A DNA stretch of 32,724 nt, taken from IMG/VR virus record IMGVR_UViG_3300011185_000002; one strand, 5' to 3'. Every line of letters starts with the position of its first letter. Within the stretch, counting starts at the first letter, position 1. Source of the DNA: a virus. The notes beneath the pieces are model-generated. The model was not told the origin of the DNA. It worked only from the letters and a program-made list of their open reading frames with translations, and ran no database searches. This document shows positions 595 to 30,957 of the stretch, piece by piece. The translations under genes and the position numbers were made by a program.

Positions 595-662
595 TTATGT
601 AATATAACAACTATGCGGATATGATCGTTCGCATACACCACACAAACAAAGAGGTAATCATC

Positions 663-4372: not shown

Positions 4373-4386
4373 AGTGGAGTTAAGAG

Positions 4387-8472: not shown

Positions 8473-8491
8473 ATATAGAGAGGGTAACACC

Positions 8492-9076: not shown

Positions 9077-9109
9077 GGCTGTGTCTTAACGGGCACGGCC
9101 TTTATTTTA
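9077..9109 (+). terminator. Probable rho-independent terminator after the tail tube gene
   Basis: The hairpin is GGCTGTG-(10-nt loop)-CACGGCC, followed by TTTATTTTAT. Confidence 0.55.
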
Positions 9110-9133
9110 TCCACAAACAAATAGGTGAACGAG

Positions 9134-17412: not shown

Positions 17413-17440
17413 GCCCGGGTCTTCGGATCCGGGCTTTTTT
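17413..17440 (+). terminator. Rho-independent terminator ending the late/lysis operon
   Basis: The hairpin is GCCCGGGTC-TTCG-GATCCGGGC, followed by TTTTTT. Confidence 0.85.
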
Positions 17441-17487
17441 ATACCTGACTGAAAATAATTAAATGGGCTATTAGCCCGCTCAGGTGG

Positions 17488-17797
17488 ACCTGTGCATTTG
17501 TGCATTCTGGCTGTGCACCTGCTGCACAACGTAAGCCACTGATATTAAAGGGTTTCAGAGACCTGTGCACTTTGTGCATCTGCCTGGTGTGCGTGTGCAC
17601 CTGTGCAGAGGGGTCCGACCAACTCTTTCTTTTTCTTAGTAATAGTATATGTATATATAAACACGGTAAATCGATAAAGAAATTCAATCTCGCGAGCTGC
17701 ACATCTGCTGCACAAAATGCACAGGCCTGAAAACCACTTAAAATACAAGCATTTGCGCCGTGCACCGACTGCACACCCAAAATGCACAGGTGCACAT
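17488..17797. repeat. Iteron module A: a TGTGCA/TGCACA box array in dyad arrangement around an AT-rich core (candidate origin or operator array)
   Basis: Perfect TGTGCA boxes start at 17491, 17499, 17512, 17564, 17573, 17594 and 17602. Perfect reverse-complement TGCACA boxes start at 17523, 17698, 17709, 17718, 17770, 17783 and 17791. The AT-rich core spans about 17620-17690. No credible ORF is present. Confidence 0.8.
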
Positions 17798-17833
17798 ACC
17801 TGTGAATTCCGGCTTTAATCTGTGATATTATTG

Positions 17834-17862
17834 TTGACCCACCTACCTGATAAGCTTACTAT
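17834..17862 (+). promoter_or_regulatory. Candidate sigma70 promoter for the replication operon (TTGACC, 17 nt, TACTAT)
   Basis: The hexamers lie at 17834-17839 and 17857-17862, about 45 nt upstream of the primase-helicase start and just downstream of module A. Confidence 0.5.
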
Positions 17863-17905
17863 AACAACCAGTCGCATACACAAACACGAACACAGAGGGC
17901 ACCTT

Positions 17906-20470
17906 ATGCTTTTCGAACACCACAAAGCTGACTTGAAGCGCTCCGGGCTATCCGACGAAATGATCGCCGCAATGGGGTGCGAGAGCTTCGACTCACAATC
18001 AATCCAGCGCAGGATCTCTGGCGCTTCCAATGGAGCCGCGTCTGACGGCTACTCAATCCCTTACCCTGGGTCTAACGCAGTCCGCTACCGGCTGAGCACC
18101 GGAGCCCAGTCCGGAAGTGATAAGGCTATCCGGTACCTGTCTCCGATCGCTGACGCGTGGGACGTGTACGTGCCTGCAGGGTTCGACAAACTTAGCACCG
18201 ACACACTGCTAATCACAGAAGGGGAGAAGAAAGCCGCAAAGGCTGTTCAGGAAGGTATCCCAGCTATCGCTATCCCGGGCGTGTGGATGTGGAGGGACCC
18301 GGCTATCGAGCGTGACGGGAAGATGAGCGCCGGAACCCCGATCATCCCGCGTATTGCCGAGCTTGCTAAAGGCCGCAAGGTTGTCATACTGGCGGACTCT
18401 GACGCGAAAGCAAATCAGCAGGTCAAGGCTGCTCTTACGTTGCTCGCTAAAGCGATCGCGCATCAAGTTGAGTGTGAGGCTTCCGTCTTTGCTGTCTGCC
18501 CAGCTCCGGCCGCTGACAAAGTCGGACTTGATGACTGGCTGCTCAGCGATGGTACCAGTCCAGTTCACTCCATGCTGGTAGCTGCCGAGGGTTTTGAGAA
18601 TCCTGGGTTCCGCCTGTCAATACCGTACGCCGAGAAGACTGACGGGTCCTACCTCCACTACCTGATCCCGTTCGACGTTAAGAGTAAGCCGATCCTACCT
18701 CCAGTTCTGAAGGAGTATGAGGAGGACGGGGAGACGATGTACAAGGCGACCGGCGCCCCTTACCTGTACCTGAGGCGTAATCTATTAGTGCTTAACCGCA
18801 ACTCAGACGGTGAATACCGCACTAATGACTCCGACGCGCCAGCTGAGGTCCTCTCAGAAGTGGAGGGTGTTACAGACGATCGCAGGGCCATTCTCGCACG
18901 GCTGAAGGCTACCGACCTATCAGAGAAAGAGGGCATTCTGAAATACGGTCTATCCGGGTCCCCTGCGGAGTTCAGCAAGATCTCACGCGCTCAGCGTAAC
19001 GCACGTATGTGCCCGACCGTTCGAGTGGCTGGGGAGAGGGGCTGGCTGAAAGTTGATGGGAGACTGCACTACCTGTACAGCGATTGTGCTGTAACGCCAG
19101 AAGGTGAAGCCCCTGTACTACCAAATCTAACAAACGACCGCGAGGGTGTCCGAACTGCAGGCGCATCCGGTGACTTTGATCGCTGGGCTGACATTGTTGC
19201 CCAACTCGTAGCGACTCACCCAGTCCAAGCCGCTGTAATGGGGTTCGCTGCAAGTTCTGCTGGCCTGTTCTTTGTACCTGACGCGGAGCCCGGTGTTCTG
19301 CATATCTATGGTGACAGCTCGAAGGGCAAGACCACAACGCTGCAGATCGCCGCTTCTCTAATTGGCCGGGCTACCAATCCGCGTGACCCTAGCAGCTGGA
19401 TCAAAGGCTGGCGGACCACTGACAACGGACTTGAACGTCCTTTGGCTGACACAAATCATGCTCCGCTGATGCTAGATGAGATTCACGCGGCTCCTGCGCG
19501 TACTGACTGGCAGGCAACGGCTTATATGATCGCCAACGGTCGCGGCAAAGAGCGTATGAAGCACACGACTGAGGCGCGCAAGACACCAACTTGGGAGCTC
19601 CAGCTACTCAGCTCTGGTGAAGTTTCAATGGGCGAGAAGATCCGCAAATCTGCAAAAGGTGCCGTTCCTGGTGGGCTGGCTTTTCGGGTTATTGATTTGT
19701 ATGCCGGCAATCTGGATCTTGTCGACCTCGGCATTCACGCTGACGCATGGGAAGAGGTGCTCGGGTATCCGGTTAAGTCTGACGCTGAACTGGCAGAAGC
19801 TCTGGAGACTGAGTTCTCGAACAACTACGGGCATTTCTGGCCTCAGCTTATTGGGTACCTTCGGGATTCTGGGGGGTTCAGCTACGCAGAGATCTATGAG
19901 CGCTTCCGTCGACGGGCAATCGCGTACCTGCCAGAAGACGCATCTACTATCGCTCAGCGTCGTACAAAGCATGTTGCATCTGCAATGGCCGGGCTCTACA
20001 CGATGTGCGAGCTGATCGGAATGGCACCGGACAGAGAAGACAAGGACGTTATCGACAGCGCTGAGGAATGGTGCTACAAAAACATGCTGCTCGCTGGGAT
20101 CGAAGATCTGAGCGGTACCGAAGCAGAGAGCATGATCGAGGTGATTACTGCCGAGATCCTTGCGAACGCTCAGCGCTTTTACCGTCCTGGGGTCGACACT
20201 AAAGGCGGGTCTCAGCTGGGCTGGATTGACGAAGACGGGTCTGTATTCTTGCCAGTGAAGACGGGGTGGAGCCAGCTCTGTCAGGAATGTGGGATCGATT
20301 CCGAGAGGGCCCGGGATGCACTGATGAAACAAGGCTGGAAGAAAGGCCGGTACCGGCACCCAGCTTCGGGCTCTGGATCTAACCCGACAACAACGTTGAA
20401 AGCGTTCGGTCTGATGAAATCGCTGGTTTCTAAAGACGAGAATGAGTCTGACGACTTGCAGCCCCTGTAA
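17906..20470 (+). CDS. Bifunctional primase-helicase (N-terminal Toprim domain plus DUF927/SF3-type P-loop NTPase)
   Basis: The Toprim motifs are LLITEGEKKAAKA and VVILADSDAKAN. Walker A is GDSSKGKTT and Walker B is PLMLDEIH. The segment ANGRGKERM is DUF927-like. An AGAGGG RBS precedes the ATG at 17906. Confidence 0.85.
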   Translation: MLFEHHKADLKRSGLSDEMIAAMGCESFDSQSIQRRISGASNGAASDGYSIPYPGSNAVRYRLSTGAQSGSDKAIRYLSPIADAWDVYVPAGFDKLSTDTLLITEGEKKAAKAVQEGIPAIAIPGVWMWRDPAIERDGKMSAGTPIIPRIAELAKGRKVVILADSDAKANQQVKAALTLLAKAIAHQVECEASVFAVCPAPAADKVGLDDWLLSDGTSPVHSMLVAAEGFENPGFRLSIPYAEKTDGSYLHYLIPFDVKSKPILPPVLKEYEEDGETMYKATGAPYLYLRRNLLVLNRNSDGEYRTNDSDAPAEVLSEVEGVTDDRRAILARLKATDLSEKEGILKYGLSGSPAEFSKISRAQRNARMCPTVRVAGERGWLKVDGRLHYLYSDCAVTPEGEAPVLPNLTNDREGVRTAGASGDFDRWADIVAQLVATHPVQAAVMGFAASSAGLFFVPDAEPGVLHIYGDSSKGKTTTLQIAASLIGRATNPRDPSSWIKGWRTTDNGLERPLADTNHAPLMLDEIHAAPARTDWQATAYMIANGRGKERMKHTTEARKTPTWELQLLSSGEVSMGEKIRKSAKGAVPGGLAFRVIDLYAGNLDLVDLGIHADAWEEVLGYPVKSDAELAEALETEFSNNYGHFWPQLIGYLRDSGGFSYAEIYERFRRRAIAYLPEDASTIAQRRTKHVASAMAGLYTMCELIGMAPDREDKDVIDSAEEWCYKNMLLAGIEDLSGTEAESMIEVITAEILANAQRFYRPGVDTKGGSQLGWIDEDGSVFLPVKTGWSQLCQECGIDSERARDALMKQGWKKGRYRHPASGSGSNPTTTLKAFGLMKSLVSKDENESDDLQPL

Positions 20471-20511
20471 AGGGGCGTTATACTACTGCCATACTCAATA
20501 GGAGACATACA

Positions 20512-20700
20512 ATGATTACTACATTTCAAGCAGCAGAGATCCTCGGGGTATCCGTACCTCGCATTCACAAACTACTTTCTCAGGACCGTGTGAAAGGCGC
20601 TGAAAAGATCGGCCTCCGCCGTGGCACCTGGATCATCCCTACTGATGAGGATGGCCGCCCTACTATCCTGCCTCCGGAAGAGGGGTCGCATAGAGCCTGA
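20512..20700 (+). CDS. Small helix-turn-helix DNA-binding protein (excisionase/MerR-like HTH_17 type)
   Basis: MITTFQAAEILGVSVPRIHKLLSQDRV...GTWIIP is the typical pattern. An AGGAGA RBS is present. Confidence 0.65.
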   Translation: MITTFQAAEILGVSVPRIHKLLSQDRVKGAEKIGLRRGTWIIPTDEDGRPTILPPEEGSHRA

Positions 20701-20749
20701 CTAGTTCCGCCGCAAGGACGTGGCCACCTAAACAAATAACGAGGTGCAA

Positions 20750-23050
20750 ATGTTTCTCACTAAAATCTCTGGATTCCACATCGCCCAGATCAAAGCTGCC
20801 AGCGTTATCGTCATCGATCTTGAGACGACCGGCCTAACGCCCTTTCAGCCAGAGCAGCGCATCAAGAACACTACCAAAGTTGCTGGTATGACAATCCGCC
20901 AGTATAAAGAGCTCTTCCCGAACCTGCAGATCAACACAAAGCTTCGCCCGCGGATCCTGTCAATTTCTATTAACGGATCTGTTGACGAAGTCTATGCTTG
21001 GGATCTCGATAAACTCAGCAAAGAAGACCGCTTAACTCTCTGTGACGCCTGCATCCGAGATAAGATCGTTGCTGGCCAGAACCTCGCTTTTGACTTGTCA
21101 TGGCTATCATGGATCACACCCGCTCAGCCGGCCGGCCTTCTCGATACTGTCCTGTTGGTCCGCACACACCGCCCAGGAATCGCAACTGCAGGTATGAACA
21201 TCAGAGCTCACAGGTCATCACGTCCTGAGGTCAAAGCCGCCGCTCGAAAGATGCTACGACAGAAGAAGACGGCTGCCTCGCTGGCTGGGCTGGCTGCATA
21301 CTTCGAAATTGAAGACGCTGAAGATATTGATAAGCAGTTCCAAAAGCCACAGAACTGGTGCCTGGACCCGCTCTCAAAAGGCCATTATGACTACGCCACT
21401 GGCGACGTTGAAGTGCCGGTGGAGCTGGCTCGCCGGATCCTGGGGATTGACGGATCCGCATATCAGCTTTATAAAGAAGCTATCAAGTCTCACCACTACA
21501 ACATCTCGCAACAAGCGATCCTGAGGCTTGTTAAGATGCATCGCCGGGGAATGCCGATCGACACGAAGGCAGCAAAAGAGTACCAGTGCGAACTGGCTAA
21601 TACGGTATTGGAGAGCGCTACTAAGCTGGCTGATAATACTCCAGAACTTTCGCCGTTCCGTGAATCACTGATGACAATGACTGCATCACTCACAAAAGAC
21701 CTGAAAGAGGCCCTGGCTGGGTGGGCCGGCCGGTATGGCGTTGACCTGCGTAATAAGAACGGTGACGTTGCTGCTGACAAGAAAGAGGCTTCCATTCGTG
21801 GTGCCAACTCAGTACCTGGCTGGGCTGACTGGCTGAGATTGCAGGACGCCAAAAAGCGGTACGCCATGGTCTCTGAGTACCTCGATATCCAGCGCCCGAT
21901 CGCTGATGGCTATGGGACTCTTCACAGCTTGATCGGCGTGAACTGCGCAACTATGCGGACGAGCTCACAGAAGCCGAACATGCAAAACGTCCCTAACGGG
22001 AAGATGCGCGAGCTATTCTCACCGCCCCCTGGCTACCAAATCATTGCAGCGGACTACTCTCAGATTGAGCTTCGAATTGCAGCCGGCCTGGCAAAGAGAG
22101 CCGTTGAAGAAGCTGAAGACTGCACTTCTCAGAAACTTCAACAGCGCTGGATCCGTGAAGCCGTCTCAGTAGCAAAGTCTGGGCATGTCATACCCGGTCC
22201 TGAGAAAGATCCCATGGATTACGTCGACGAAGAGGCCAGGATTGGCGCCTACCTCGATCAGTACCGGAACGGAATTACATCCGCGATCGCAGACATGAAA
22301 CGTGTAGGCATGCCATTGGTGCAAGTCTTTGAGCTGGGGCTGGATCCGCACTTGTCGACGGCGTTAGGTATCTGTATCCGGAAGGGGACTTTCATACTAC
22401 CGGAAGGCTGCATAACAATTGTTGACTTTCTGCGGACCCAGTCAAAAGAGCAAGTCGAAGAGTTAAAAAGCCGGTACGGTGCGGAGCGGAAAGCCGCTAA
22501 GGCTGTGAACTTCGGACTGCTGTATGGTATGGCAGCGTTTAAGCTCTGGCGCACTGGTGTTACTGACTACGGCCTTACTTGGAGCCTTGAGGAAGCAACA
22601 CAGGCCCGTGAGGCTTGGCTGGACCAGTACCCAGAGGTTCGGTTCTGGCAAGTCTGGACCCGCTGCACCTGCAAAGCCGGCCGATTCACGATGATGATGA
22701 AAGATGGGGCGGACCTCGTAGAGAAAGACGTTACTCTTTACGATGTAAAGACCCTCAGCGGCCGCTCTATCTATGCCGCGAGTATGAACTCGGCATTAAA
22801 CTATGGTGACCAAGGGACGGGCGCTGATGTGACACTCGAAGCCGTGACATTGTGTCCGGATGACAGTTCGAGAGGGTGGCTAGTTGATGTTGTTCACGAT
22901 GAGATTGTCGCCATTGCAAAAGATGAGTATACTACTACTTATACAGACTTAATCATTGGAGCAATGGAGCGTGCTGCGGAGAGCAGTCTCTCTCAGTACG
23001 ACATCCCAGTTGAAGTTGAGGCTGGAGCTGGGAGAATCTGGAACCACTGA
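20750..23050 (+). CDS. DNA polymerase, family A (Pol I-like), with a 3'-5' exonuclease domain
   Basis: Exo I is DLETTGL, Exo II is QNLAFDLSWL, and Exo III is YDYATGD. Pol motif A is DYSQIELR, motif B is RKAAKAVNFGLLYGM, and motif C is VVHDEIV. Confidence 0.93.
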   Translation: MFLTKISGFHIAQIKAASVIVIDLETTGLTPFQPEQRIKNTTKVAGMTIRQYKELFPNLQINTKLRPRILSISINGSVDEVYAWDLDKLSKEDRLTLCDACIRDKIVAGQNLAFDLSWLSWITPAQPAGLLDTVLLVRTHRPGIATAGMNIRAHRSSRPEVKAAARKMLRQKKTAASLAGLAAYFEIEDAEDIDKQFQKPQNWCLDPLSKGHYDYATGDVEVPVELARRILGIDGSAYQLYKEAIKSHHYNISQQAILRLVKMHRRGMPIDTKAAKEYQCELANTVLESATKLADNTPELSPFRESLMTMTASLTKDLKEALAGWAGRYGVDLRNKNGDVAADKKEASIRGANSVPGWADWLRLQDAKKRYAMVSEYLDIQRPIADGYGTLHSLIGVNCATMRTSSQKPNMQNVPNGKMRELFSPPPGYQIIAADYSQIELRIAAGLAKRAVEEAEDCTSQKLQQRWIREAVSVAKSGHVIPGPEKDPMDYVDEEARIGAYLDQYRNGITSAIADMKRVGMPLVQVFELGLDPHLSTALGICIRKGTFILPEGCITIVDFLRTQSKEQVEELKSRYGAERKAAKAVNFGLLYGMAAFKLWRTGVTDYGLTWSLEEATQAREAWLDQYPEVRFWQVWTRCTCKAGRFTMMMKDGADLVEKDVTLYDVKTLSGRSIYAASMNSALNYGDQGTGADVTLEAVTLCPDDSSRGWLVDVVHDEIVAIAKDEYTTTYTDLIIGAMERAAESSLSQYDIPVEVEAGAGRIWNH

Positions 23051-23060
23051 GGAATTAGAC

Positions 23061-23279
23061 ATGAGAAAAATAGACGACGCATTTTACAGAGCAGTGCTGG
23101 CGCTGATTATCGTGCTCTGTTTTGTTCCCTGGCAGCATTTACGCAGGGCTGCATTACGCTTGGCGATCTTTGCTGGGCTAATTTTGCTGGCATTCTATGT
23201 CGGCTATTCATCACCAAAAGTTGGAGAATTACATGACAACTCGAATCATCGCAGACAAACGATTACTCGAATTCTGTAA
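23061..23279 (+). CDS. Small membrane protein (72 aa, 2 TM helices)
   Basis: A GAGGAA RBS is present. The hydrophobic segments are AVLALIIVLCFVPW and LAIFAGLILLAFYVGY. Confidence 0.5.
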   Translation: MRKIDDAFYRAVLALIIVLCFVPWQHLRRAALRLAIFAGLILLAFYVGYSSPKVGELHDNSNHRRQTITRIL

Positions 23280-24429
23280 GACCGAGAAGCAGAGCGAAGC
23301 AGTGCAAGCTGTTATCGACACCGGTAGCATCAAAAAAGCAGCGCAGAAACTGGGGCGTTTTGACAGCTCAATCCAGCGCTCACTGAGCAGGGCACGGAAA
23401 GAGGCTGCAGCTCAGAACGTGGACCCTGCTGACGAGGCAGAAGCGCGGACCATGGAAGGCTTCACAGTCAAACGGAAATCAACGCTTTACGACCGCCGTG
23501 ACGGATCTACTATGTTGCAGTGGGTTATCGAAGAGCCAAGCAAAGTTGCCCAGGCAGAAGCGTTTGAGGAAGCAATCCGGGACTTGATCCAGGACCTGCC
23601 AAAAGCCCCAGTCACAAAGCTGAAGCGCAAGGCAAAGAAGCTGGATCCGAACTTGATGAACATCATACCTTTCGGGGATCCGCATTTTGGAATGTTGGCG
23701 TGGGATGACGAAGTTGGTGACAACTTTGACCTTAAGATCGCAGAAGACGACCACACCAACGCAGTCCGCGAGCTGATGAACCGGGCACCAAAGGCAGAGC
23801 ATTGCGTTTTGATCTCACTAGGCGACTACTTCCACTTCGACAATATGAACGGCACCACGGCCAGGTCTGGGCACGTTCTCGATGCAGATGGCCGGCTGCC
23901 TAAAGTGATCAACTCCGGGATCCGCTGCTACATCAACATGATCCGACTGGCACTTGAGACGCATAAGCATGTGACTGCGATGGTCATCCAAGGCAACCAT
24001 GACGAGGTGCTGGCGAACGCTATGCAAGTGACACTGGCATTCGTTTTCGAGAACGATCCGCGTGTTACTGTTCCAGTCAACCCGGCTCACCGGCATTACC
24101 TGGAGCACGGAAAGGTGCTTATCGGTGTGACGCACGGCCATGAGACAAAAGATCCGCAACTGCCGATCATTATGGCAACTGAACAGGGTGAAGCCTGGGG
24201 CCGCACGAAGTTCCGTTACTACTACCGCGGGCACCACCACCACGATGAGATGAAAGAATACAACGGCTGCACGGTTGAGCAGTTCCGCACGATAGCTGCC
24301 GGGGACTCGCACGCTGTTCACCATGGCTATCTGAGCCACCGAGATGTTAAACTGATCACTATGCATAGCGATTATGGCGAAGTTGGAAGGCAAGTCTGCA
24401 GCGTCGAGATGCTTCGCGATAAATATTAA
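23233..24429 (+). CDS. Calcineurin-like metallophosphoesterase (Mre11/SbcD-type motifs) with an N-terminal HTH
   Basis: The motifs are FGDPHFG, SLGDYFHFDN, IQGNHDE, THGHE and RGHHHH. The N-terminal segment KTEKQSEAVQAVIDTGSIKKAAQKLGRFDSSIQRSLSRARK looks like a sigma-70 region-4 / LuxR-type HTH. Confidence 0.75.
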   Translation: MTTRIIADKRLLEFCKTEKQSEAVQAVIDTGSIKKAAQKLGRFDSSIQRSLSRARKEAAAQNVDPADEAEARTMEGFTVKRKSTLYDRRDGSTMLQWVIEEPSKVAQAEAFEEAIRDLIQDLPKAPVTKLKRKAKKLDPNLMNIIPFGDPHFGMLAWDDEVGDNFDLKIAEDDHTNAVRELMNRAPKAEHCVLISLGDYFHFDNMNGTTARSGHVLDADGRLPKVINSGIRCYINMIRLALETHKHVTAMVIQGNHDEVLANAMQVTLAFVFENDPRVTVPVNPAHRHYLEHGKVLIGVTHGHETKDPQLPIIMATEQGEAWGRTKFRYYYRGHHHHDEMKEYNGCTVEQFRTIAAGDSHAVHHGYLSHRDVKLITMHSDYGEVGRQVCSVEMLRDKY

Positions 24430-24432
24430 CCT

Positions 24433-24453
24433 GGGGCCCTGCGGGGCCTTTTT
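24433..24453 (+). terminator. Rho-independent terminator
   Basis: The hairpin is GGCCC-TGCG-GGGCC, followed by TTTTT. Confidence 0.6.
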
Positions 24454-24469
24454 AATTGGAGACTAAGGC

Positions 24470-25747
24470 ATGGCTATTGTTGAAGGCCCTTTTCAAAACA
24501 TAACTCAAATTGCTTCTGGTGGAGCTTTTTGCGTTTCAATTAACCTATCCTCATCCAGTATTCTCTCAGACCAGAACTTTGTCAGGTTTGTAGGCGGTGA
24601 TGGATCCCAGTTCGACTATAATCTTGGATCTAGTTTCCAGTTCCTGAATAAAAGGTCGCAGGGAGCTGAGCCGGTCCCGGTGCTAGGGCTTAAATGTGCA
24701 TTTCCTTTTATCGCAAAAGAGAGGAACCTGCTGACCAACTTGTATACTGCAGGTTTTTCTGTGTTTGACGGGGCAGAGGGGTTAGTATCCGCCATCTCGT
24801 ACCAATGCTTTGACCTGAAGTTTATAGGTCGCTTCCCGACCTCAAAAAGTAAGTTTGTCTACTTAGTTGAGGGCGGCCTTGACGAAGGTATCTACGTGGG
24901 TCAAATCCAGGAAAATGGGACGATTAACGTCACCGCCTATGTGCCGTACATCGATATACAGCTGGATGAATCACTGTTCAATGCGTGGGATCAAGCGGTA
25001 GCTGCAGAAGTAGAGCTCCCAGGCAATCCGCTTGCAGTGTATTTCTCCGATCCAGGGGACCCTGAGCCGGCAATAATAAGATTCGGTTTTAGGGATTTCA
25101 TAGCTATATCTGGTACCCGTGTAGCAGTGACTCCCAGAGTGATAAAAATCAGGGAGGTTGGGCCCGGGGGGAACGATAGAGAGACCTACATAACAGTATT
25201 TGTGATGCTGGACAGCACTCTGACACCTACTACCGTAACGGTCGACCCGGACATCCCGACCCCAGATTTCCTCCCAGCCATACAACCACCTATAAGCGAT
25301 TTTGTCGGTAACATCCGGGTAGACGACGCGAGTAGCAATGATCAGCTTCTGCTGACGCCAACGCTGCAGTACATCGGCCCTAGGCCGAGAATAACAGGAC
25401 AGACCTTTACGCCTAACACAAACGCTTACCTGAGGCTGGTAAGTGAGACTGAGTCCGGATCTTTCGGCTTCATTGATGTGACCAGAAGATTTGAGTTTAT
25501 AGATTTTCAGAATAACGACGTTTACGGGGTGACGCCATTTTATGACACTCTGACAGACTCAAATCCTATCGAGACAGCAATTGACTTAGATGGCAGCGGG
25601 GTGCTGTTCTCCGCGGCCGCGATATTCGGAAGAACCGATAGAGCGACCGTGTACGCCGGCAGCTTCAATAATGGGGATAGTTTTTCTTCCAGAAGTAGCC
25701 TATCAAACAGGCGGCCGATAAATATCCACTATGGAGCTCTACTATGA
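24470..25747 (+). CDS. Large hypothetical protein (425 aa ORFan)
   Basis: A GGAGA RBS is present. The ORF is clean and overlaps the RuvC-like gene start by ATGA. I recognise no motif. The 5' third has visibly lower GC than its neighbours. Confidence 0.65.
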   Translation: MAIVEGPFQNITQIASGGAFCVSINLSSSSILSDQNFVRFVGGDGSQFDYNLGSSFQFLNKRSQGAEPVPVLGLKCAFPFIAKERNLLTNLYTAGFSVFDGAEGLVSAISYQCFDLKFIGRFPTSKSKFVYLVEGGLDEGIYVGQIQENGTINVTAYVPYIDIQLDESLFNAWDQAVAAEVELPGNPLAVYFSDPGDPEPAIIRFGFRDFIAISGTRVAVTPRVIKIREVGPGGNDRETYITVFVMLDSTLTPTTVTVDPDIPTPDFLPAIQPPISDFVGNIRVDDASSNDQLLLTPTLQYIGPRPRITGQTFTPNTNAYLRLVSETESGSFGFIDVTRRFEFIDFQNNDVYGVTPFYDTLTDSNPIETAIDLDGSGVLFSAAAIFGRTDRATVYAGSFNNGDSFSSRSSLSNRRPINIHYGALL

Positions 25748-26253
25748 AATCATTTATAGGCTGTGACCCAGGACTTAGAGGCGCAATCGCAATAGTCAAC
25801 GAGCGTGCTGAACTTATCAGCTGTTTCGACATGCCAGTCAGAGAGATCCGGGGCGTGAAGACGGCGACCGTGAAGAATGAAGTCAATCCCAGTGAGCTGG
25901 TGGCCAAGCTGGATCCAGGCCCGCTTTACGATCTTGAATATGGTATAATTGAGAGAGTCGGGACGCGCCCAAGGCAGGGAATTGCAAGCGCTTTCGGGTT
26001 CGGTGATAGCTTCGGCGCTGCCAGGTCTGTACTCGAATGTGCATGCGCTGGACGGATCGGGGAAGCGAGACCTGCAGACTGGAAGCGTGACCTGGGACTT
26101 GAAACGCTGGATAAAGACGCGTCAATCGAGAAAGCAAAGAAACTTGTATCCGGATCTGAGCAGTTCCTGACCCGGAAGAAAGATCATGACCGGGCTGAAG
26201 CGATATTGCTGGCCTGGATGGCATTGAAGAGGTGGAAAAATGGCAAACGCTAA
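25744..26253 (+). CDS. RuvC-like Holliday junction resolvase
   Basis: The N-terminus FIGCDPGLRGAIAIV carries the catalytic Asp of the RNaseH fold. The C-terminal segment DHDRAEAILLAWMAL is typical of phage RuvC-like resolvases. Confidence 0.7.
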   Translation: MKSFIGCDPGLRGAIAIVNERAELISCFDMPVREIRGVKTATVKNEVNPSELVAKLDPGPLYDLEYGIIERVGTRPRQGIASAFGFGDSFGAARSVLECACAGRIGEARPADWKRDLGLETLDKDASIEKAKKLVSGSEQFLTRKKDHDRAEAILLAWMALKRWKNGKR

Positions 26254-26812
26254 AGCTACGCAGAAGAAAAAGGCGCCTGAAACGGTGCTTAAGGGCAACC
26301 GGCCGGCAGCTGGTGGCGGGATCAAGAAAAAGCCCGGTAAAGGCCGTAATCCAGTGTCTGAGAACCTATTGATGAGTGTCATTGAGCGGATGTGCGAAGG
26401 TGAGAGCCTGCGCCAGATCTGCCAGGACCCTAAAATGCCTTCAGTAGGGACGGTACTTAACTACGCCATGCTCAGGAAAGGTGTGGGGCAGGAATGGGTT
26501 GAGCGCTTTGCTGAGGCGTACCAGATCGCTAAACAGATTCGGGCTGAGGCCTGGGCAGACGAGCTGGTCGGGATTGCAGACGGCACCGCCCCAATCAGTG
26601 AAGACGTACAACGTAACAAGCTGAGGATCGACACGCGGAAATGGCTGCTGAGCAAGCTGATGAAAGAGTACAGTGAAAAGCAAGCTCATGAAATCAGTGG
26701 TCCGGATGGTGGGCCTGTTAAGTCAGAGAGTCAGGTGATGTTATATCTGCCTGACAACAAAAGAAGCTATGAAGACGAGGGAACTGTTGACGAGCCTGGT
26801 TCAGAACAGTAA
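26240..26812 (+). CDS. Terminase small subunit-like HTH protein
   Basis: GESLRQICQDPKMPSVGTVLNY is HTH-like. RNKLRIDTRKWLLSKLM resembles a family I recall being annotated as terminase small subunit in many phages. The gene is not adjacent to terL. Confidence 0.5.
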   Translation: MANAKATQKKKAPETVLKGNRPAAGGGIKKKPGKGRNPVSENLLMSVIERMCEGESLRQICQDPKMPSVGTVLNYAMLRKGVGQEWVERFAEAYQIAKQIRAEAWADELVGIADGTAPISEDVQRNKLRIDTRKWLLSKLMKEYSEKQAHEISGPDGGPVKSESQVMLYLPDNKRSYEDEGTVDEPGSEQ

Positions 26813-26864
26813 TATAATGGTTATTACGGAAGTGATGAGCCGTGATATCAGTGAGAAACGTTTA

Positions 26865-26897
26865 GCCCGGTTGAAAAATACCGGGTATTTTTTTGCC
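26865..26897 (+). terminator. Rho-independent terminator
   Basis: The hairpin is GCCCGGT-TGAAAAAT-ACCGGGT, followed by ATTTTTTT. Confidence 0.75.
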
Positions 26898-26920
26898 CTA
26901 AGGTATTGCATAAGTATAAC
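26893..26920 (+). promoter_or_regulatory. Candidate sigma70 promoter (TTGCCC, 16 nt, TATAAC)
   Basis: The hexamers lie at 26893-26898 and 26915-26920, about 50 nt upstream of the next ORF. Confidence 0.35.
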
Positions 26921-26969
26921 AAGCCGAGTAACCTACAATTGAAGTCAACGAAAACACAAAGAGGCACTC

Positions 26970-27158
26970 ATGAAAGCAGCAGACATCCGAGTACAGAATC
27001 ACGAAGACGGTGGCGTAACAGTTAAGCACACCCCGAGCGGGATTAGCACCACGAGCAACGACAGGCAAACCCGAGAAGGTAACCTTCGGGCAGCAATGAA
27101 AGTGGTACAGACTGGGGTTAACAACTTCCAACATAAGGATCTGAACTATGTTTCGTAA
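26970..27158 (+). CDS. Small protein (62 aa) resembling the core of the class-I release factor RF-1 domain but lacking GGQ
   Basis: An AAAGAGG RBS is present. By eye, VTVKHTPSGISTTSNDRQTREGNLRAAMKVV aligns to the RF1/RF2 segment [31 protein letters not shown] through H-x-P-S/T-G-I ... D ... N ... AM-x-V. The GGQ loop is absent. Confidence 0.5.
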   Translation: MKAADIRVQNHEDGGVTVKHTPSGISTTSNDRQTREGNLRAAMKVVQTGVNNFQHKDLNYVS

Positions 27159-27390
27159 CATCATCGACTCAATCGTTTACACAGTGAAGATGGCCTGGGC
27201 TAACGCTGGCCTGGGCAACAACTTCCAAAGCGGACTGGACTGGGCTTTTCGGGAGCTGCACAACGGCGCAAGCGTACCAGATCTTGAGGCGTCAGTGCTC
27301 CACTGCAAAGGCTTCCACATGACAGAAGCCGATAAAGACTACAGCCGCGGCGTACTAGCTGCATGCGAATACTATGGAGGTGGCCTGTGA
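27148..27390 (+). CDS. Hypothetical protein (80 aa)
   Basis: The ORF overlaps its neighbours at both ends. It shares an F-x-x-G-x-x-WA-x-x-x-L-x-x-G ... LE-x-S motif with the next ORF. Confidence 0.5.
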   Translation: MFRNIIDSIVYTVKMAWANAGLGNNFQSGLDWAFRELHNGASVPDLEASVLHCKGFHMTEADKDYSRGVLAACEYYGGGL

Positions 27391-27650
27391 ACCTGAAGAT
27401 TAAAGCGGCAATCTTGAGCATCGGCGAGCTGATGCGGATCCGGATCGCGGATGCTAAGCAGGACGAGGAGTTCAAAGAGGGCATGGCCTGGGCTACTGAA
27501 CAACTTGATGATGGCTTGGACCATTACGAGCTGGAAGAATCGCTTGAGATGCAGGATCGCTATGCCAGCGAAGTGGAAGTGCCTGAGAATGTCAGAGAGT
27601 GGCTCTCAGGGGCACGGGCAGGACTACTGGAGTGGCGCTCGATAAACTGA
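27387..27650 (+). CDS. Hypothetical acidic protein (87 aa, GTG start), a probable paralogue of 27148-27390
   Basis: A GGAGGTGG RBS is followed by a GTG that overlaps the upstream TGA (GTGA). It shares the motif noted for the previous ORF. Confidence 0.45.
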   Translation: MNLKIKAAILSIGELMRIRIADAKQDEEFKEGMAWATEQLDDGLDHYELEESLEMQDRYASEVEVPENVREWLSGARAGLLEWRSIN

Positions 27651-27691
27651 GCGCTTACCTATTAAATAGATCAATACGCGAGGACTTAACG

Positions 27692-28003
27692 ATGAAACAG
27701 ATTATGATTGCAGTAGTGGCAGTGGTGATGGTGATGATCCACACCCAGGCGAACGCCCAAGGATTGAGCGGGTTGATGGCGACAGTCGAGGAGAGCATGC
27801 CGGTACTTGAACGGCTCGCTGCGGCTGATGAGGATGACCTGGCGCTTCACTGCGCGGGTAACCAGGAGTGCATCGACGGGATGCGCAACGATGTGAAGCA
27901 CCTGAATAAGGCCCTGGACATCTTGAAGAGACAGAGCGCCAGTTACCAGGCTAATAAAGCGGCATTTGATGCACAGGAAAGTTCCATAAGGGGAGGCAGG
28001 TAA
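27692..28003 (+). CDS. Small secreted / periplasmic protein (103 aa)
   Basis: A GAGGA RBS is present. The signal peptide is MKQIMIAVVAVVMVMIHTQANA-QG. The mature part is helical and contains 2 Cys. Confidence 0.6.
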   Translation: MKQIMIAVVAVVMVMIHTQANAQGLSGLMATVEESMPVLERLAAADEDDLALHCAGNQECIDGMRNDVKHLNKALDILKRQSASYQANKAAFDAQESSIRGGR

Positions 28004-28677
28004 TGAGAAAACAAGCTGGAGTCACCAAGGTTAATGACGATGAGTGGTATACACCGTATGGGACGGCTTTAAAAGTGGCGGAGTGGCTGGCATCGGCGCT
28101 TAGCCTGGATACACCGATACTATGCCCAGCGGACCTGCCTCCGGATGGATCAGAGTCCGCGATCCCAGAGGCTTTGAGGGCCGTCGGTTTTCGGCAAGTG
28201 CGGGTTACGCGGGACCTTCCCGTATCAACCCAGGAGATACAGGACTGGTTACCAGGTGAAGTTATTGTGACGAACCCACCGTTTAGTCTGCTGGTTCCTT
28301 TCAGGCGCTGGGCCCTCGCGTCAGGATCCAGGTTTTGTATACTATCAAGGCCAGGCGAAATGCGTAGCTGCTGGAACATTCCAGAACTCGGCAGCAGGTT
28401 CAAATCAACAGACGGGCGAAGCGTTGCAGCTGCGTGGGTGCAGAACATTAAGGACACCGTAGAGCCTGGCGAGGTTGCTGGCAATGTCCTTGGGGATTGC
28501 GGGGTCTGCGAGAGTAAGTCATGCCCGAAGAATTCTATGACTGAGGGCTGGCTACCAGGTAAACCAAGGCCACTGTACGGCTTCGGTACTGCAGCTAAGG
28601 GAGGCTTCGTAGGATATTATTGCAAGGTGTATCGTGTAGACGGGATAGGAAAATTTATTAGGTTTTTCAAGCCCTGA
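28003..28677 (+). CDS. Putative DNA N6-adenine methyltransferase (EcoRI-methylase-like family)
   Basis: The N-terminus has DDEWYTP. Catalytic motif IV is VIVTNPPFSLL. The layout resembles the PF13651-type phage adenine methylases as I recall them. Confidence 0.6.
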   Translation: MRKQAGVTKVNDDEWYTPYGTALKVAEWLASALSLDTPILCPADLPPDGSESAIPEALRAVGFRQVRVTRDLPVSTQEIQDWLPGEVIVTNPPFSLLVPFRRWALASGSRFCILSRPGEMRSCWNIPELGSRFKSTDGRSVAAAWVQNIKDTVEPGEVAGNVLGDCGVCESKSCPKNSMTEGWLPGKPRPLYGFGTAAKGGFVGYYCKVYRVDGIGKFIRFFKP

Positions 28678-28717
28678 GATATAGTCACACAGAAAGCATC
28701 ATAAGGGGAAACAAGTA

Positions 28718-29416
28718 ATGCGAGTACTAATTGCATTTGAATCCAGCGGCGTAGTCAGGGAGGCTTTCAGGAGGCTCGGGCATGACGCATGGAGCTGTGA
28801 TCTTCAGCAGGCCGACGATGGGAGTGAGCATCATATTCAAGGGGATGTGATGAGGATCCTTGATGCTGGATGGGACTTGATGATCGCACACCCACCGTGC
28901 ACTTACCTGACTAGCTCGGCAGCGTGGGCGTTTGGGGATGGCCCATACCATCAGAAGGTTAGACCAGAAACCTTGGTAGGTGCAGCCAGGAGAGAGGCCA
29001 GAGAAGAGGCTTTGCGTATGGTGCAGGCATTATTAGAGGCACCTATAAAGCGGATCGCTATTGAGAACCCGTCGGGGTCTATAGGTACTCGAATCCGTAA
29101 AGCAGACCAGTATATCCAGGCGTATGACTTTGGCGAGGATGCCAGTAAGAAGACAGGACTATGGCTCAAGGGCTTAGATCCGATCAAGGGGGAACACTAC
29201 GTTCAGCCACGCTGGGTATGCTGCGGCATGACTCTGCCTGATGGGGTTGGGCGGTATGGGTGCCCAAACTGCTGCGGTGATGAGACCCCTAAGCCGAGAT
29301 GGGCAAACCAAACCCAAAGCGGGCAGAGCAACCTCGGACCTGCTAAAGACCGGTGGAAGGTCAGATCTAAAACCTATCAAGGCATTGCTGATGCGATGGC
29401 TAAGCATTGGGGGTGA
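28718..29416 (+). CDS. Short cytosine-C5 methyltransferase-like protein (232 aa) with a Cys-rich C-terminal segment
   Basis: The motif I-like segment is VLIAFESSGVV, the motif IV-like segment is AHPPCTYL, the motif VI-like segment is IAIENPSG, and the motif VIII-like segment is QAYDFGEDASKKTGLW. The C-terminal segment is CCGMTLPDGVGRYGCPNCCG. No clear target-recognition domain or motifs IX/X were seen. Confidence 0.5.
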   Translation: MRVLIAFESSGVVREAFRRLGHDAWSCDLQQADDGSEHHIQGDVMRILDAGWDLMIAHPPCTYLTSSAAWAFGDGPYHQKVRPETLVGAARREAREEALRMVQALLEAPIKRIAIENPSGSIGTRIRKADQYIQAYDFGEDASKKTGLWLKGLDPIKGEHYVQPRWVCCGMTLPDGVGRYGCPNCCGDETPKPRWANQTQSGQSNLGPAKDRWKVRSKTYQGIADAMAKHWG

Positions 29417-29465
29417 CCCCGGAAAGCAAAAGAAGACCCCGGCCAGGAATGATCGAGGGCTTTTT

Positions 29466-29941
29466 TGTGCGTGTGCACTTTGTGCAGCTGCGCTGTGCAA
29501 TCGGTCGAGTTTGTGCACTTCGGATCCTTGCAAGCGCACATGTATAAATTTTGATCAATCTTATGCTAACCGTAAGTGACTGTTTTTAAAGGGTTTGTGC
29601 ACCTGTGCATTTTGGGTGTGCAGTCGGTGCACGACGCAAGTACCTGATTCTATTGAAGTTTTTCAGTTTGTGCACTTTGTGCAGCAGCTGCGCGATTTGT
29701 GCACCTGTGCAGTGGTAAGGGTTCGCCCTACTTTTTTTAATTTCTTAAGATATATATGAGTATATGAATTAAATAAGGGTCTCATGCGACGTCAAAACTT
29801 TCGTGTTATGCACATGATGCTGCACAAAGTGCACAGATCCTGAAAACCCTTTAGTATCAATAGTTTACGCCGTGCACCGACTGCACACCCAAAATGCACA
29901 GGTGCACATGCCTAGCAAAATCAATGACTTACACTGGTGCA
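29466..29941. repeat. Iteron module B, a paralogue of module A with an extra internal block that creates a perfect 38-bp inverted repeat
   Basis: Perfect TGTGCA boxes start at 29472, 29481, 29494, 29512, 29596, 29604, 29617, 29669, 29678, 29698 and 29706. Perfect TGCACA boxes start at 29809, 29821, 29830, 29882, 29895 and 29903. The AT-rich core spans about 29722-29800. The segment 29596-29633 is the exact reverse complement of 29871-29908. Confidence 0.85.
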
Positions 29942-29996: not shown

Positions 29997-30024
29997 TTGC
30001 ATTAAACTAACAAGCGCGTATAGT
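29997..30024 (+). promoter_or_regulatory. Candidate sigma70 promoter (TTGCAT, 16 nt, TATAGT) for the 30069-31784 operon
   Basis: The hexamers lie at 29997-30002 and 30019-30024, 45 nt upstream of the ATG at 30069. Confidence 0.5.
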
Positions 30025-30516: not shown

Positions 30517-30957
30517 ATGAACACCAATATCAACGAGCTCACCGAAAAGTTCACCCTGGATACCATCGAGATCCGCCAGCATGCCGCACGCCCTCTCCAG
30601 GATGGTATGCTGAAAACCTACGCGATCGGCGTGATGCAATTCCGCATGCTCGAAGAGCCCAGTGTCCGCCTCCGGTTCCCGGTCTACGCTGAGTCTGACC
30701 TGCACATGTACATTGCCAGCCCAGAGGATTTGCGTTATGACGTGATGCTCGCTGTCGACGTTTGTAACGACCTCTTCATGGGAGTCACTAAGAGCACGAT
30801 CAACGATCCGGAATCTGTCCGTGAATACATCGAGAGCTGCATCCGATTCGAGCAATTCTTTGAGGCTGAGCTACGCGCAGTTGAGAACCTGCCGATCGAG
30901 AATCTCTCCGGAATTGTTGTTGACCATGATCCGGGATCGGATTACTATAACAACTGA
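30517..30957 (+). CDS. Acidic hypothetical protein (146 aa)
   Basis: A TGAGGT RBS is present. By my count there are about 26 Asp/Glu against about 12 Lys/Arg. Confidence 0.6.
   Translation: MNTNINELTEKFTLDTIEIRQHAARPLQDGMLKTYAIGVMQFRMLEEPSVRLRFPVYAESDLHMYIASPEDLRYDVMLAVDVCNDLFMGVTKSTINDPESVREYIESCIRFEQFFEAELRAVENLPIENLSGIVVDHDPGSDYYNN

What the first reader, a model, noticed from the sequence alone, without database searches (positions are those of the whole stretch)
17553..29909. Modules A and B are paralogous, co-oriented, and bracket the replication module, suggesting a bipartite ori/crr-like system
The segments 17553-17797 (245 bp) and 29661-29909 (249 bp) align end to end in the same orientation. 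From left to right, the shared order is:
- TTTCAG
- GTGCACTTTGTGCA
- GTGCACCTGTGCAG
- the AT-rich core
- GCTGCACA...TGCACAG..CCTGAAAACC
- an identical 42-bp block, CGCCGTGCACCGACTGCACACCCAAAATGCACAGGTGCACAT, at 17756-17797 and 29868-29909

The sequences just upstream are also homologous: AACGTAAGCCACTGATATTAAAGGGTTT versus AACCGTAAGTGACTGTTTTTAAAGGGTTT.

Each module follows the end of a transcription unit and precedes a sigma70-like promoter. Module A follows a strong terminator; no convincing terminator was found upstream of module B. The pair encloses exactly the replication, recombination and methyltransferase gene block, about 12.1 kb.

The closest precedent I know is satellite phage P4. 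Its primase-helicase alpha protein binds octamer iterons (TGTTCACC, as I recall) in two separate loci, ori and crr, several kb apart, and both are needed for replication.

The direct 42-bp identity also gives a substrate for Sak/YqaJ-mediated deletion of the 12.1-kb block. Concerted evolution, that is ongoing gene conversion between the two copies, would explain a perfect 42-mer embedded in otherwise diverged sequence.
Basis: partly seen in the sequence, partly recalled or inferred. Interest (0 to 1): 0.9.

Follow-up and report, generated by a model that had tools for sequence, protein, structure and literature searches.

The report
Twin iteron-flanked phage replication origins
Two copies of a ~315-bp element, with rows of TGCACA boxes pointing in opposite directions around the most AT-rich DNA in the genome, are most likely replication origins read by the phage's own primase-helicase; this is a design known from staphylococcal SaPI islands, here enlarged and duplicated in an uncultivated phage.

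Summary
Each module (A 17488-17800, B 29592-29912) is an imperfect palindrome with a fixed polarity. It has four tiers of TGCAC(A) boxes, two on each side, all pointing the same way relative to a 90-nt AT-rich core. 31 of the genome's 40 TGCACA hexamers lie in the two intergenic regions.

The same architecture is conserved in relatives with 33-63% GC. Only the boxes and the (TA)n core are kept.

The adjacent primase-helicase is a DUF927 helicase. It is homologous to SCCmec Cch and SaPI Rep, and has a Cch-like C-terminal winged-helix region. SaPI origins are built the same way: short iterons in opposite orientation on either side of an AT-rich centre.

More distant homologues on plasmid-like contigs carry their own iteron clusters (GGTGACA, GCCGACA).

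My reading is that each module is a complete origin. The P4-style "ori plus crr, both required" reading is weakened for three reasons:
- Relatives carry one module at A only or at a B-like site only.
- P4 alpha is not homologous.
- A and B are both full copies.

A second genome also has both modules, and the paralogues show concerted evolution (20 versus 4 informative sites). SPP1 oriL/oriR is the best precedent for the duplication. This is a new variant of a known kind, and binding is untested.

The parts
17413..17444 (+). Intrinsic terminator ending the structural/lysis operon, just upstream of module A
   Evidence: 9-bp GC-rich stem followed by TTTTTTAT. Relatives have an equivalent hairpin plus T-run before their modules.
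17488..17800 (+). Module A: a complete origin-like unit
   Evidence: The nhmmer module profile gives 236 bits on + and 153 bits on -. It aligns end to end with module B and with 10 modules from relatives.
17491..17528 (-). A, outer-left tier: 4 boxes (TGTGCA at 17491, 17499, 17512; TGCACA at 17523)
17564..17607 (-). A, inner-left tier: 4 TGTGCA boxes at 17564, 17573, 17594 and 17602. The first box starts 42 nt after the last outer-tier box; a T-tract spacer lies between the tiers.
17608..17697 (+). A, AT-rich core: CTCTTTCTTTTTC followed by TATATGTATATATAA. Putative DNA-unwinding element.
   Evidence: 65% AT overall. Its 40-nt peak of 0.82 is the second highest in the genome. The pyrimidine tract plus (TA)n is conserved in all relatives, including the 63%-GC L030.
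17698..17723 (+). A, inner-right tier: 3 TGCACA boxes at 17698, 17709 and 17718
   Evidence: The TGCACAAARTGCACA core recurs in the window modules, L003, L004 and L006/L016.
17756..17797 (+). A, outer-right tier (GTGCAC at 17760; TGCACA at 17770, 17783, 17791). This is the 42-mer identical to 29868-29909.
   Evidence: It follows the inner tier after a 36-nt spacer, the same length in window A, window B and L003 (read from the sequences).
17834..17862 (+). Sigma70-like promoter TTGACC-N17-TACTAT for the replication operon
   Evidence: Conserved in L031 as TTGACT-N17-TACTAT. The same extended motif recurs at 30913-30954 (D4).
17906..20470 (+). Primase-helicase (DUF3854 + DUF927 + C-terminal winged-helix region): the proposed initiator that reads the boxes
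   Evidence: Pfam DUF927 at 9e-33 and DUF3854 at 6e-17. PDB 5DGK (Cch) at 6e-10 and 8TCH (pathogenicity island protein) at 1e-4. The model of the C-terminal 254 aa best matches Cch (probability 1.0, 223 columns) and ends in a beta-beta-H-H-beta-beta unit.
29426..29466 (+). Weak hairpin plus U6 after the methyltransferase gene; a possible terminator before module B
   Evidence: -15.6 kcal/mol, z = -1.2. Not picked up by the pattern scan. Orthologous B modules follow clear terminators.
29472..29517 (-). B, extra outermost left tier: 4 TGTGCA boxes at 29472, 29481, 29494 and 29512
   Evidence: An equivalent extra tier is present in the B modules of L016, L007, L012 and L010.
29592..29912 (+). Module B: a complete origin-like unit
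   Evidence: nhmmer gives 240 bits on + and 166 bits on -. An independent metagenome contig, L024, carries the same sequence.
29595..29636 (-). B, outer-left tier: the reverse complement of the 42-mer with 2 mismatches (boxes at 29596, 29604, 29617; GTGCAC at 29627)
29669..29711 (-). B, inner-left tier: 4 TGTGCA boxes at 29669, 29678, 29698 and 29706
29712..29808 (+). B, AT-rich core; putative DNA-unwinding element
   Evidence: 68% AT overall. Its 40-nt peak of 0.88 is the highest in the genome.
29809..29835 (+). B, inner-right tier: 3 TGCACA boxes at 29809, 29821 and 29830
29868..29909 (+). B, outer-right tier: the 42-mer identical to 17756-17797
29997..30024 (+). Promoter-like TTGCAT-N16-TATAGT ahead of the 30069 / 30517 / Sak / TerL operon
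   Evidence: Read from the sequence. It falls below the scan threshold. L016 has TTGCAG-N16-TATAGT at the matching place.

Best explanation
Each module is a complete origin of replication of the SaPI-Rep/Cch type.

**Proposed mechanism**
1. The phage's primase-helicase (17906-20470) recognises the TGCAC(A) boxes through its C-terminal winged-helix region.
2. The boxes form two oppositely oriented arms, each with an inner and an outer tier. Tiers are phased 42 bp apart, with an A/T-tract between them. This would let the protein assemble on both sides of the core in opposite orientations.
3. The (TA)n-rich core, the most easily melted DNA in the genome, opens.
4. The fused DUF3854 domain (presumed to be the primase) primes, and the phage PolA extends.

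**Why two copies**
- The window phage and at least one relative carry two such origins about 12 kb apart. Both sit in terminator-to-promoter gaps, and they are kept similar by gene conversion or by co-evolution with the initiator.
- The second copy is more likely a redundant or auxiliary initiator-binding origin than an obligatory partner.

**Shown versus inferred**
- Shown: the architecture, its confinement to two loci, its conservation across relatives, the homology of the helicase, and its C-terminal fold.
- Inferred: binding, melting, origin firing, and the role of the second copy.
For: 1. **Architecture and confinement.** 31 of 40 TGCACA hexamers lie in the two gaps. Orientation is strictly polar around the core. 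The two cores are the two AT-richest windows in the genome.
2. **Phylogenetic footprint.** Across nine non-redundant modules from phages of 33-52% GC, the 73 box columns have a mean major-allele frequency of 0.96 and 59 are invariant. The other 240 columns average 0.68, with 29 invariant. The 63%-GC relative L030 keeps GTGCAC boxes around an (AT)n core.
3. **Homology of the helicase.** Pfam DUF927 at 9e-33. PDB matches to SCCmec Cch (5DGK, 6e-10) and a SaPI protein (8TCH, 1e-4). The C-terminal model matches Cch with probability 1.0 and ends in a winged-helix-like unit.
4. **Known design of SaPI origins.** SaPI Reps are self-loading initiator-helicases. Their C-terminal winged helix binds penta- or hexanucleotide iterons that lie on both sides of an AT-rich centre and point in opposite directions (PMC9371898).
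5. **Iterons change with the protein.** Distant homologues have different iteron clusters around AT-rich DNA next to the gene: 11 GGTGACA in L033 (33% identity, conjugative-plasmid-like contig) and about 10 GCCGACA in L036 (27% identity). The putative recognition helix differs between these groups.
6. **Co-occurrence.** Only the helicase, a RuvC-like resolvase and the TerS-like protein are shared by all module-bearing genomes. PolA, HTH_17 and Sak are missing from L029 and L032.
7. **One module can be enough.** A profile search finds exactly one module in L029, L032 and L030, and two in the window.
Against: - No binding or replication data exist, and the host is unknown.
- SaPI origins lie immediately downstream of rep. 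Here A lies about 100 bp upstream of the gene and B about 9 kb downstream.
- The TerS-like DNA-binding protein also co-occurs with the modules, so it cannot be excluded as the binder on profile grounds alone.
- Both modules sit just upstream of promoters, which would also suit an operator role.
- Cumulative GC skew gives no clear origin signal, because all genes are on one strand.
- Only half of the L030 contig was available, so a second module there is not excluded.
- The C-terminal model is of moderate confidence (pLDDT 79, pTM 0.43, 10-sequence alignment).
Confidence: 0.66

Rival explanations
1. P4-like bipartite system. One module is the true origin and the other is a cis-required partner like crr. 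Both are needed and are bridged by the initiator, looping out the 12-kb replication block.
For: - In P4, ori (9086-9809) and crr (4291-4590) share the type-1 octamer and flank the alpha operon.
- The two-module state is conserved, at the same positions and about 12 kb apart, in a second genome of about 70% nucleotide identity (L031 + L012).
- The copies are homogenised, with 20 concerted versus 4 orthologous informative sites.
Against: - Both modules are complete, with both arms and a core. P4 crr, by contrast, is two 120-bp direct repeats unlike ori.
- L029 and L032 have only A. L030 has only a B-like module and none before its helicase gene.
- The helicase is not homologous to P4 alpha (E = 1.7; different Pfam families).
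Confidence: 0.12
2. Transcriptional control regions. The box arrays are operators or enhancers for a phage regulator that switches the two large operons on or off.
For: Each module lies between a terminator and the promoter of one of the two long co-directional operons. A small HTH_17 protein is encoded at 20512-20700.
Against: - Single-module relatives still have both operons.
- No similar HTH_17 gene was found in L029 or L032, which keep the module.
- Fourteen or more sites spread over 315 bp around the genome's most AT-rich 90 nt, 30-90 bp upstream of the -35, is not an operator layout.
- Distant helicase homologues on plasmid-like contigs have analogous iteron clusters.
Confidence: 0.1
3. 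Packaging (pac) recognition sites bound by the Sf6-type small terminase encoded at 26240-26812.
For: The TerS-like protein is one of only three non-structural proteins shared by all module-bearing genomes.
Against: - Two pac sites per genome would be unusual, and pac sites normally lie in or beside terS (general knowledge).
- TerS in L030 is only 27% identical, yet the boxes are kept.
- Plasmid-like homologues without a terminase also have iteron clusters.
Confidence: 0.04
4. A MITE-like mobile element, or simply a recombination boundary that delimits an exchangeable gene block, with no function of its own.
For: Long terminal inverted arms, an AT-rich interior and two copies per genome. The gene content beside B varies, for example whether methyltransferases are present.
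Against: - The module was not found in 185,579 species' genomes, nor in the phage or plasmid collections.
- Positions are syntenic and orientation is always the same.
- Selection acts on the boxes rather than on arm pairing, since A's left arm differs from the reverse complement of its right arm at 11 of 42 positions.
- No target-site duplication is evident.
Confidence: 0.03

Closest known systems
SaPI replication origins with Rep / PriRep initiator-helicases, and the related SCCmec Cch (PMC9371898)
   Same: - DUF927-type helicase homologous by sequence and by C-terminal fold.
- Primase fused to the helicase, as in PriRep5.
- Short 5-6-nt iterons split into two sets of opposite orientation around an AT-rich centre.
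- The proposed mechanism is the same: one hexamer loads on each side.
   Different: - Here the element is in a complete siphovirus-type phage genome (portal, capsid, tape measure, lysis genes), not a satellite island.
- 14-15 boxes in two phased tiers per arm, against 6-12 iterons in SaPIs.
- The module lies upstream of the gene (A) or 9 kb downstream (B), not immediately downstream.
- There are two copies.
- The N-terminal domain is DUF3854.
Bacillus phage SPP1 oriL / oriR (PMC6316719)
   Same: - Two origins of similar organisation (repeats plus an AT-rich unwinding element) about 13 kb apart in a siphovirus.
- Both are bound by one phage initiator.
- The phage also encodes an SSAP, a 5'-3' exonuclease and a Holliday-junction resolvase. 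In SPP1 these are proposed to restart a fork stalled at initiator-bound oriR and so switch replication to concatemers.
   Different: - SPP1 uses a separate origin-binding protein (gp38), a loader and a DnaB-type helicase.
- Its repeats are direct, and oriL lies inside gene 38.
- There is no sequence relationship to the window modules.
Satellite phage P4 ori / crr with the alpha primase-helicase (record X51522)
   Same: - A single primase-helicase with a DNA-binding C-terminus.
- A short repeated box present at two loci that flank the replication operon.
   Different: - No significant similarity between the two proteins (E = 1.7), and a different helicase family (D5_N / DUF5906 / Pox_D5).
- crr is structurally unlike ori, whereas A and B are full paralogues.
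- Relatives of the window phage manage with one module.
Origins of SV40 / polyomavirus large T antigen and papillomavirus E1 (from general knowledge, not tested here)
   Same: Pentanucleotide or short sites in inverted arrangement beside AT-rich DNA, where an initiator-helicase self-loads as two oppositely oriented hexamers.
   Different: These are eukaryotic viruses with a different origin-binding domain and far fewer sites. There is no homology evidence.

Membership tests
SaPI Rep / SCCmec Cch-type origin-initiator system | Initiator is a DUF927 (Cch/Rep-like) helicase | tested here: met
   Pfam DUF927 at 8.6e-33. phmmer against the PDB: 5DGK Cch at 6.1e-10 and 8TCH pathogenicity island protein at 1.4e-4.
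SaPI Rep / SCCmec Cch-type origin-initiator system | C-terminal domain with a winged helix that reads the iterons | tested here: inconclusive
   The AF2 model of the last 254 aa (pLDDT 79) best matches the Cch C-terminal region (probability 1.0, 223 columns). It ends in a beta-beta-H-H-beta-beta unit, and the next matches are weak wHTH domains. DNA binding itself was not tested.
SaPI Rep / SCCmec Cch-type origin-initiator system | Origin made of short penta- or hexanucleotide iterons | tested here: met
   TGCAC(A) boxes: 14 in A's gap and 17 in B's gap, against 9 in the remaining 31.4 kb.
SaPI Rep / SCCmec Cch-type origin-initiator system | AT-rich centre with iterons on both sides pointing in opposite directions | tested here: met
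   Left arm 7 TGTGCA, right arm 6 TGCACA, in both modules. The cores are the two AT-richest windows of the genome.
SaPI Rep / SCCmec Cch-type origin-initiator system | Origin lies immediately downstream of the rep gene | tested here: not met
   Module A ends 105 bp upstream of the gene start. Module B begins 9.1 kb downstream of the gene end.
SaPI Rep / SCCmec Cch-type origin-initiator system | Initiator binds its own origin specifically and melts it without ATP | not testable with these tools
   Needs EMSA, footprinting or permanganate assays.
P4 ori/crr bipartite origin | Initiator homologous to P4 alpha (Toprim + D5_N / Pox_D5 helicase) | tested here: not met
   BLASTP best E = 1.7. P4 alpha hits Zn_Ribbon_Prim, Toprim_3, D5_N, DUF5906 and Pox_D5, while the window protein hits only DUF3854 and DUF927.
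P4 ori/crr bipartite origin | Two structurally different loci sharing the iteron, both required in cis | tested here: not met
   A and B are full paralogues at 76% identity. Relatives carry a single module. The requirement itself cannot be tested here.
SPP1-type dual origins (oriL/oriR) | Two similarly organised origins (repeats plus an unwinding element) in one phage genome | tested here: met
   The SPP1 description comes from PMC6316719.
SPP1-type dual origins (oriL/oriR) | Separate origin-binding protein plus loader plus DnaB-type helicase | tested here: not met
   No DnaB-type helicase or loader was found among the proteins scanned. The only helicase found is the DUF927 fusion protein.

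The most novel reading that the evidence does not exclude
This would be a two-origin phage replicon driven by a SaPI-Rep-type self-loading primase-helicase. Gene conversion would keep the paralogous origins alike. The second, initiator-bound copy would serve as a programmed fork barrier or looping partner. That would trigger the phage's Sak / YqaJ / RuvC-like recombination machinery and switch replication from theta mode to concatemers. The outcome would be SPP1-like, reached with an unrelated initiator.
Probability: 0.2. Interest if true: 0.6.

Novelty: new variant of a known kind. Interest (0 to 1): 0.45.

Why it matters
- **It extends a known origin design.** The SaPI/SCCmec 'self-loading initiator-helicase plus iteron / AT-rich / iteron origin' design would reach beyond staphylococcal islands into a family of uncultivated tailed phages. 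Going by the distant homologues, it may also reach plasmid-like elements.
- **It gives a testable sequence code.** The boxes are TGCAC(A), set in a two-tier, helically phased layout.
- **It offers a natural comparison set.** Related genomes carry one origin at A, one at B, or both. That set can be used to ask what a second origin copy does and how paralogous origins are kept alike.
- **It has practical use.** The box pattern is a specific marker for finding these phages and their origins in metagenomes.

Tried and rejected
- **First fixed-spacing pattern**. It was too strict and missed true relatives whose inner spacing differs by 1 nt.
- **Metagenome pattern scan**. It returned 22 loci. About half (L008, L009, L011, L013, L014, L018, L020-L023, L025, L026, L028) are unrelated tandem or coding repeats and were discarded.
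- **Rfam**. No RNA family anywhere in the window.
- **Cultured phages and plasmids.** Megablast and blastn against INPHARED phages and PLSDB plasmids gave no match. tblastn of the helicase found nothing above 31% identity.
- **Bacterial and archaeal genomes**. Only an unrelated TGTGCACA array in a Cenarchaeum MAG. This argues against a host-borne or MITE-like element.
- **P4 alpha comparison**. Negative.
- **Hairpin or cruciform selection.** Rejected, because arm-to-arm complementarity is not conserved (A-left differs from the reverse complement of the 42-mer at 11 of 42 positions), while the boxes are.
- **Look-ups that gave nothing usable.**
  - P0014 has no DNA on file.
  - The portal-based look-ups L037 and L038 start at contig ends and do not reach the non-structural region.
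  - L039 adds only another copy of the L016-type B module.
- **GC skew**. Uninformative, because every gene is on one strand.
Full report
**What the window is.** The window is a complete phage genome of about 32.6 kb, assembled as a circle. Bases 1-123 repeat at 32602-32724, and the large-terminase gene runs across the junction. All genes are on the + strand. They form two long blocks:
- Block 1: ORFs 30069 and 30517, Sak, TerL, a YqaJ-like exonuclease, portal, capsid, tape measure and lysis genes. It ends at a strong terminator (17413-17444).
- Block 2: primase-helicase, a small HTH_17 protein, PolA, an exonuclease, a 425-aa unknown, a RuvC-like resolvase, an Sf6-type TerS-like protein, small ORFs and two methyltransferases. 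It ends at 29416.

The two modules fill the two gaps between these blocks. No cultured phage or plasmid resembles the genome or the modules.

**Checking the observation.** The 42-mer is exactly identical at 17756-17797 and 29868-29909. TGCACA occurs 40 times against 19.5 +/- 4.5 expected, and 31 of the 40 lie in the two gaps (26 per kb inside, 0.29 per kb outside).

Each module is about 315 bp (A 17488-17800, B 29592-29912). From left to right it contains:
- an outer-left tier of 4 boxes;
- a spacer that ends in a T-tract;
- an inner-left tier of 4 boxes;
- a ~90-nt AT-rich core (a pyrimidine tract followed by (TA)n);
- an inner-right tier of 3 boxes;
- a 36-nt spacer that begins with an A-tract;
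- an outer-right tier of 4 boxes.

Left-arm boxes read TGTGCA and right-arm boxes read TGCACA (7:0-1 versus 0:6 in both modules). Each module is therefore a large imperfect palindrome (I1-I3). The reverse complement of the 42-mer sits at 29595-29636 with two mismatches. Adjacent tiers start 42 bp apart, which is four helical turns. The two cores are the two AT-richest 40-nt windows in the whole genome (0.82 and 0.88; next best 0.75). B has a further outer tier at 29472-29517.

**Conservation in relatives.** A box-spacing pattern and protein look-ups recovered related contigs from viral and metagenome collections.
- The same module lies upstream of the primase-helicase gene in L003/L027, L019, L029, L031 and L032.
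- It lies at the B position (after the homologue of ORF 27599, before the homologues of 30069, 30517 and Sak) in L016/L006/L039, L015/L004, L007, L017, L012, L010 and L024.
- These genomes range from 33% to 63% GC, and their helicases are 49-79% identical to the window's.

In an alignment of nine non-redundant modules, the 73 box columns have a mean major-allele frequency of 0.96 (59 invariant). The other 240 columns average 0.68 (29 invariant). Even the 63%-GC L030 keeps GTGCAC boxes around an (AT)n core. A profile of the module scores about 240 bits on the + strand and about 160 on the - strand. So the modules are palindromic but polar, and in every genome they point the same way as the genes. 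This is a strong footprint of selection on the boxes and the core, not on arm pairing.

**What reads the boxes.** The adjacent gene encodes a DUF3854 + DUF927 protein.
- Its helicase part matches the solved structures of SCCmec Cch (5DGK, 6e-10) and a staphylococcal pathogenicity-island protein (8TCH, 1e-4).
- An AlphaFold model of its last 254 residues (pLDDT 79) finds Cch as its only confident structural match (probability 1.0 over 223 columns). It ends in a beta-beta-helix-helix-beta-beta unit typical of a winged helix.
- The literature on this family says that SaPI Reps are self-loading initiator-helicases. Their C-terminal winged helix recognises penta- or hexanucleotide iterons. There are 6-12 iterons, with an AT-rich region at the centre of the origin and iterons on each side pointing in opposite directions. 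One hexamer is thought to load on each side (PMC9371898).

The window modules fit that description point for point. They are simply larger and two-tiered.

**Family-level support.**
- More distant homologues sit next to their own iteron clusters around AT-rich DNA. L033 has eleven GGTGACA at 8472-8771 (33% identity; a conjugative-plasmid-like contig with a divergent PolA gene). L036 has about ten GCCGACA upstream of its gene (27% identity).
- The putative recognition helix differs between these three groups.
- Among the non-structural proteins, only the helicase, the RuvC-like resolvase and the TerS-like protein are present in every module-bearing genome. PolA, the HTH_17 protein and Sak are absent from L029 and L032.
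- TerS in L030 is only 27% identical while the boxes are kept. The plasmid-like homologues have no terminase. The helicase is therefore the best candidate binder.

**One origin or a bipartite one.** L031 and L012 overlap over 2170 bp at 99.9% identity, so they are one phage. That phage is about 70% identical to the window in nucleotides, and it also has both A and B about 12.0 kb apart. Other relatives do not have two modules. In L029 and L032 the loci run from the tail genes through the helicase to TerL, and each contains exactly one module, at A. L030 has none in the 260-bp gap before its helicase gene and exactly one downstream of its TerS-like gene. Only half of the L030 contig was available.

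Both window modules are complete units, and single modules suffice elsewhere. Each is therefore best read as an autonomous origin. Even so, three points tell against a P4-type system:
- crr is structurally unlike ori.
- P4 alpha shows no significant similarity to the window protein (E = 1.7).
- P4 alpha belongs to the D5_N / Pox_D5 helicase family.

SPP1 is the better precedent for the duplication. It has two similarly built origins about 13 kb apart, both bound by one initiator. The second is proposed to stall forks and so hand replication over to an SSAP, an exonuclease and a resolvase (PMC6316719). The window phage encodes a Sak SSAP, a YqaJ-like exonuclease and a RuvC-like resolvase. That role for the second copy is possible but untested.

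**Concerted evolution.** I compared four modules: window A and B, and A and B of the second phage.
- 20 informative sites group the paralogues within a genome.
- 4 sites group the orthologues.
- 7 sites are crosswise.

Overall identities agree. Within a genome, A-B identity is 64% and 69%. Between genomes, A-A is 59% and B-B is 65%. In the window, three of the four outer tiers are nearly identical, while A's left outer tier keeps a form closer to that of the other phage. An alternative is that the spacers co-evolve with each genome's initiator. No A/B recombinant junction was seen among the contigs recovered.

**Rivals.**
- *Operator or enhancer role.* The terminator-module-promoter layout suits it. 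Single-module relatives, loss of the HTH_17 gene and the plasmid-borne analogues do not.
- *pac site.* Unlikely, given two copies, the distance from terS, and conservation of the boxes despite TerS divergence.
- *MITE-like element.* Unlikely, because the module is absent from 185,579 species' genomes and is always syntenic and co-oriented.

**Verdict.** The 'bipartite ori/crr' part is not. The element is a new, enlarged and duplicated variant of the SaPI-Rep/Cch type of origin, in an uncultivated phage lineage. It is of moderate interest, mainly for the natural one-versus-two-origin series and for the homogenisation of the copies.

Noticed in passing
window 1-123 and 32602-32724; TerL across the junction (22-594 is its C-terminal part): The window is a circularly closed assembly with a 123-bp overlap. 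The large-terminase gene is split by the arbitrary start point.
   Followed up: partly
window 621-1544, 26240-26812, 31011-31784: Unusual gene placement. A YqaJ-like exonuclease sits between TerL and the portal gene. Sak sits directly upstream of TerL. The only TerS-like (Sf6-type) gene lies about 5 kb upstream of where TerL begins, inside the replication block.
   Followed up: partly
window 17827-17868 and 30913-30954: A shared extended promoter-like motif, ATTnTTGTTGACC-N17-TACTATAACAAC. The second copy lies inside the 3' end of ORF 30517-30957, just upstream of Sak. This suggests a phage-specific promoter class.
   Followed up: no
window 17724-17735 and 29836-29848 (CCTGAAAACC), with mirrored T-tracts at 17548-17556 and 29655-29665: Conserved A/T-tracts lie just outside each inner tier in all relatives. 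W_B also has TATCAATAGTTTA, which fits the IHF consensus WATCAANNNNTTR. These may be bend sites or sites for a second factor.
   Followed up: no
window 24470-25747: A 425-aa ORF in the replication block has no Pfam or PHROG match. It is conserved at 32-34% identity in L031 and L039.
   Followed up: no
L002 13140-13300 (IMGVR_UViG_3300042261_000601): An unrelated GC-rich phage contig has inverted arrays of TTGCACA boxes around a short G/C palindrome. They lie right next to an AAA_25 (RepA/DnaB-like) helicase gene. This looks like an analogous origin with a similar box.
   Followed up: partly
L033 8472-8771 and L036 4700-5330: Distant DUF3854-DUF927 homologues sit beside their own iteron clusters, GGTGACA x11 and GCCGACA x~10, around AT-rich DNA. 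L033 carries relaxase and T4SS genes. L033 (and the P0014 contig, by its gene table) also carries a family-A polymerase gene, placed divergently from the helicase gene.
   Followed up: partly
L035 4064-4205 (Cenarchaeum sp. MAG OZ243037.1): A dense tandem array of TTGTGCACA units is followed by a CAGTGTAC array in an archaeal chromosome. It is unrelated to the phage module but was caught by the same pattern.
   Followed up: no
L029 and L032 (helicase 757 aa): The AT-rich relatives that carry a single module lack PolA, and their helicase N-terminal region no longer scores as DUF3854. They presumably rely on a host polymerase and perhaps on another primase.
   Followed up: no
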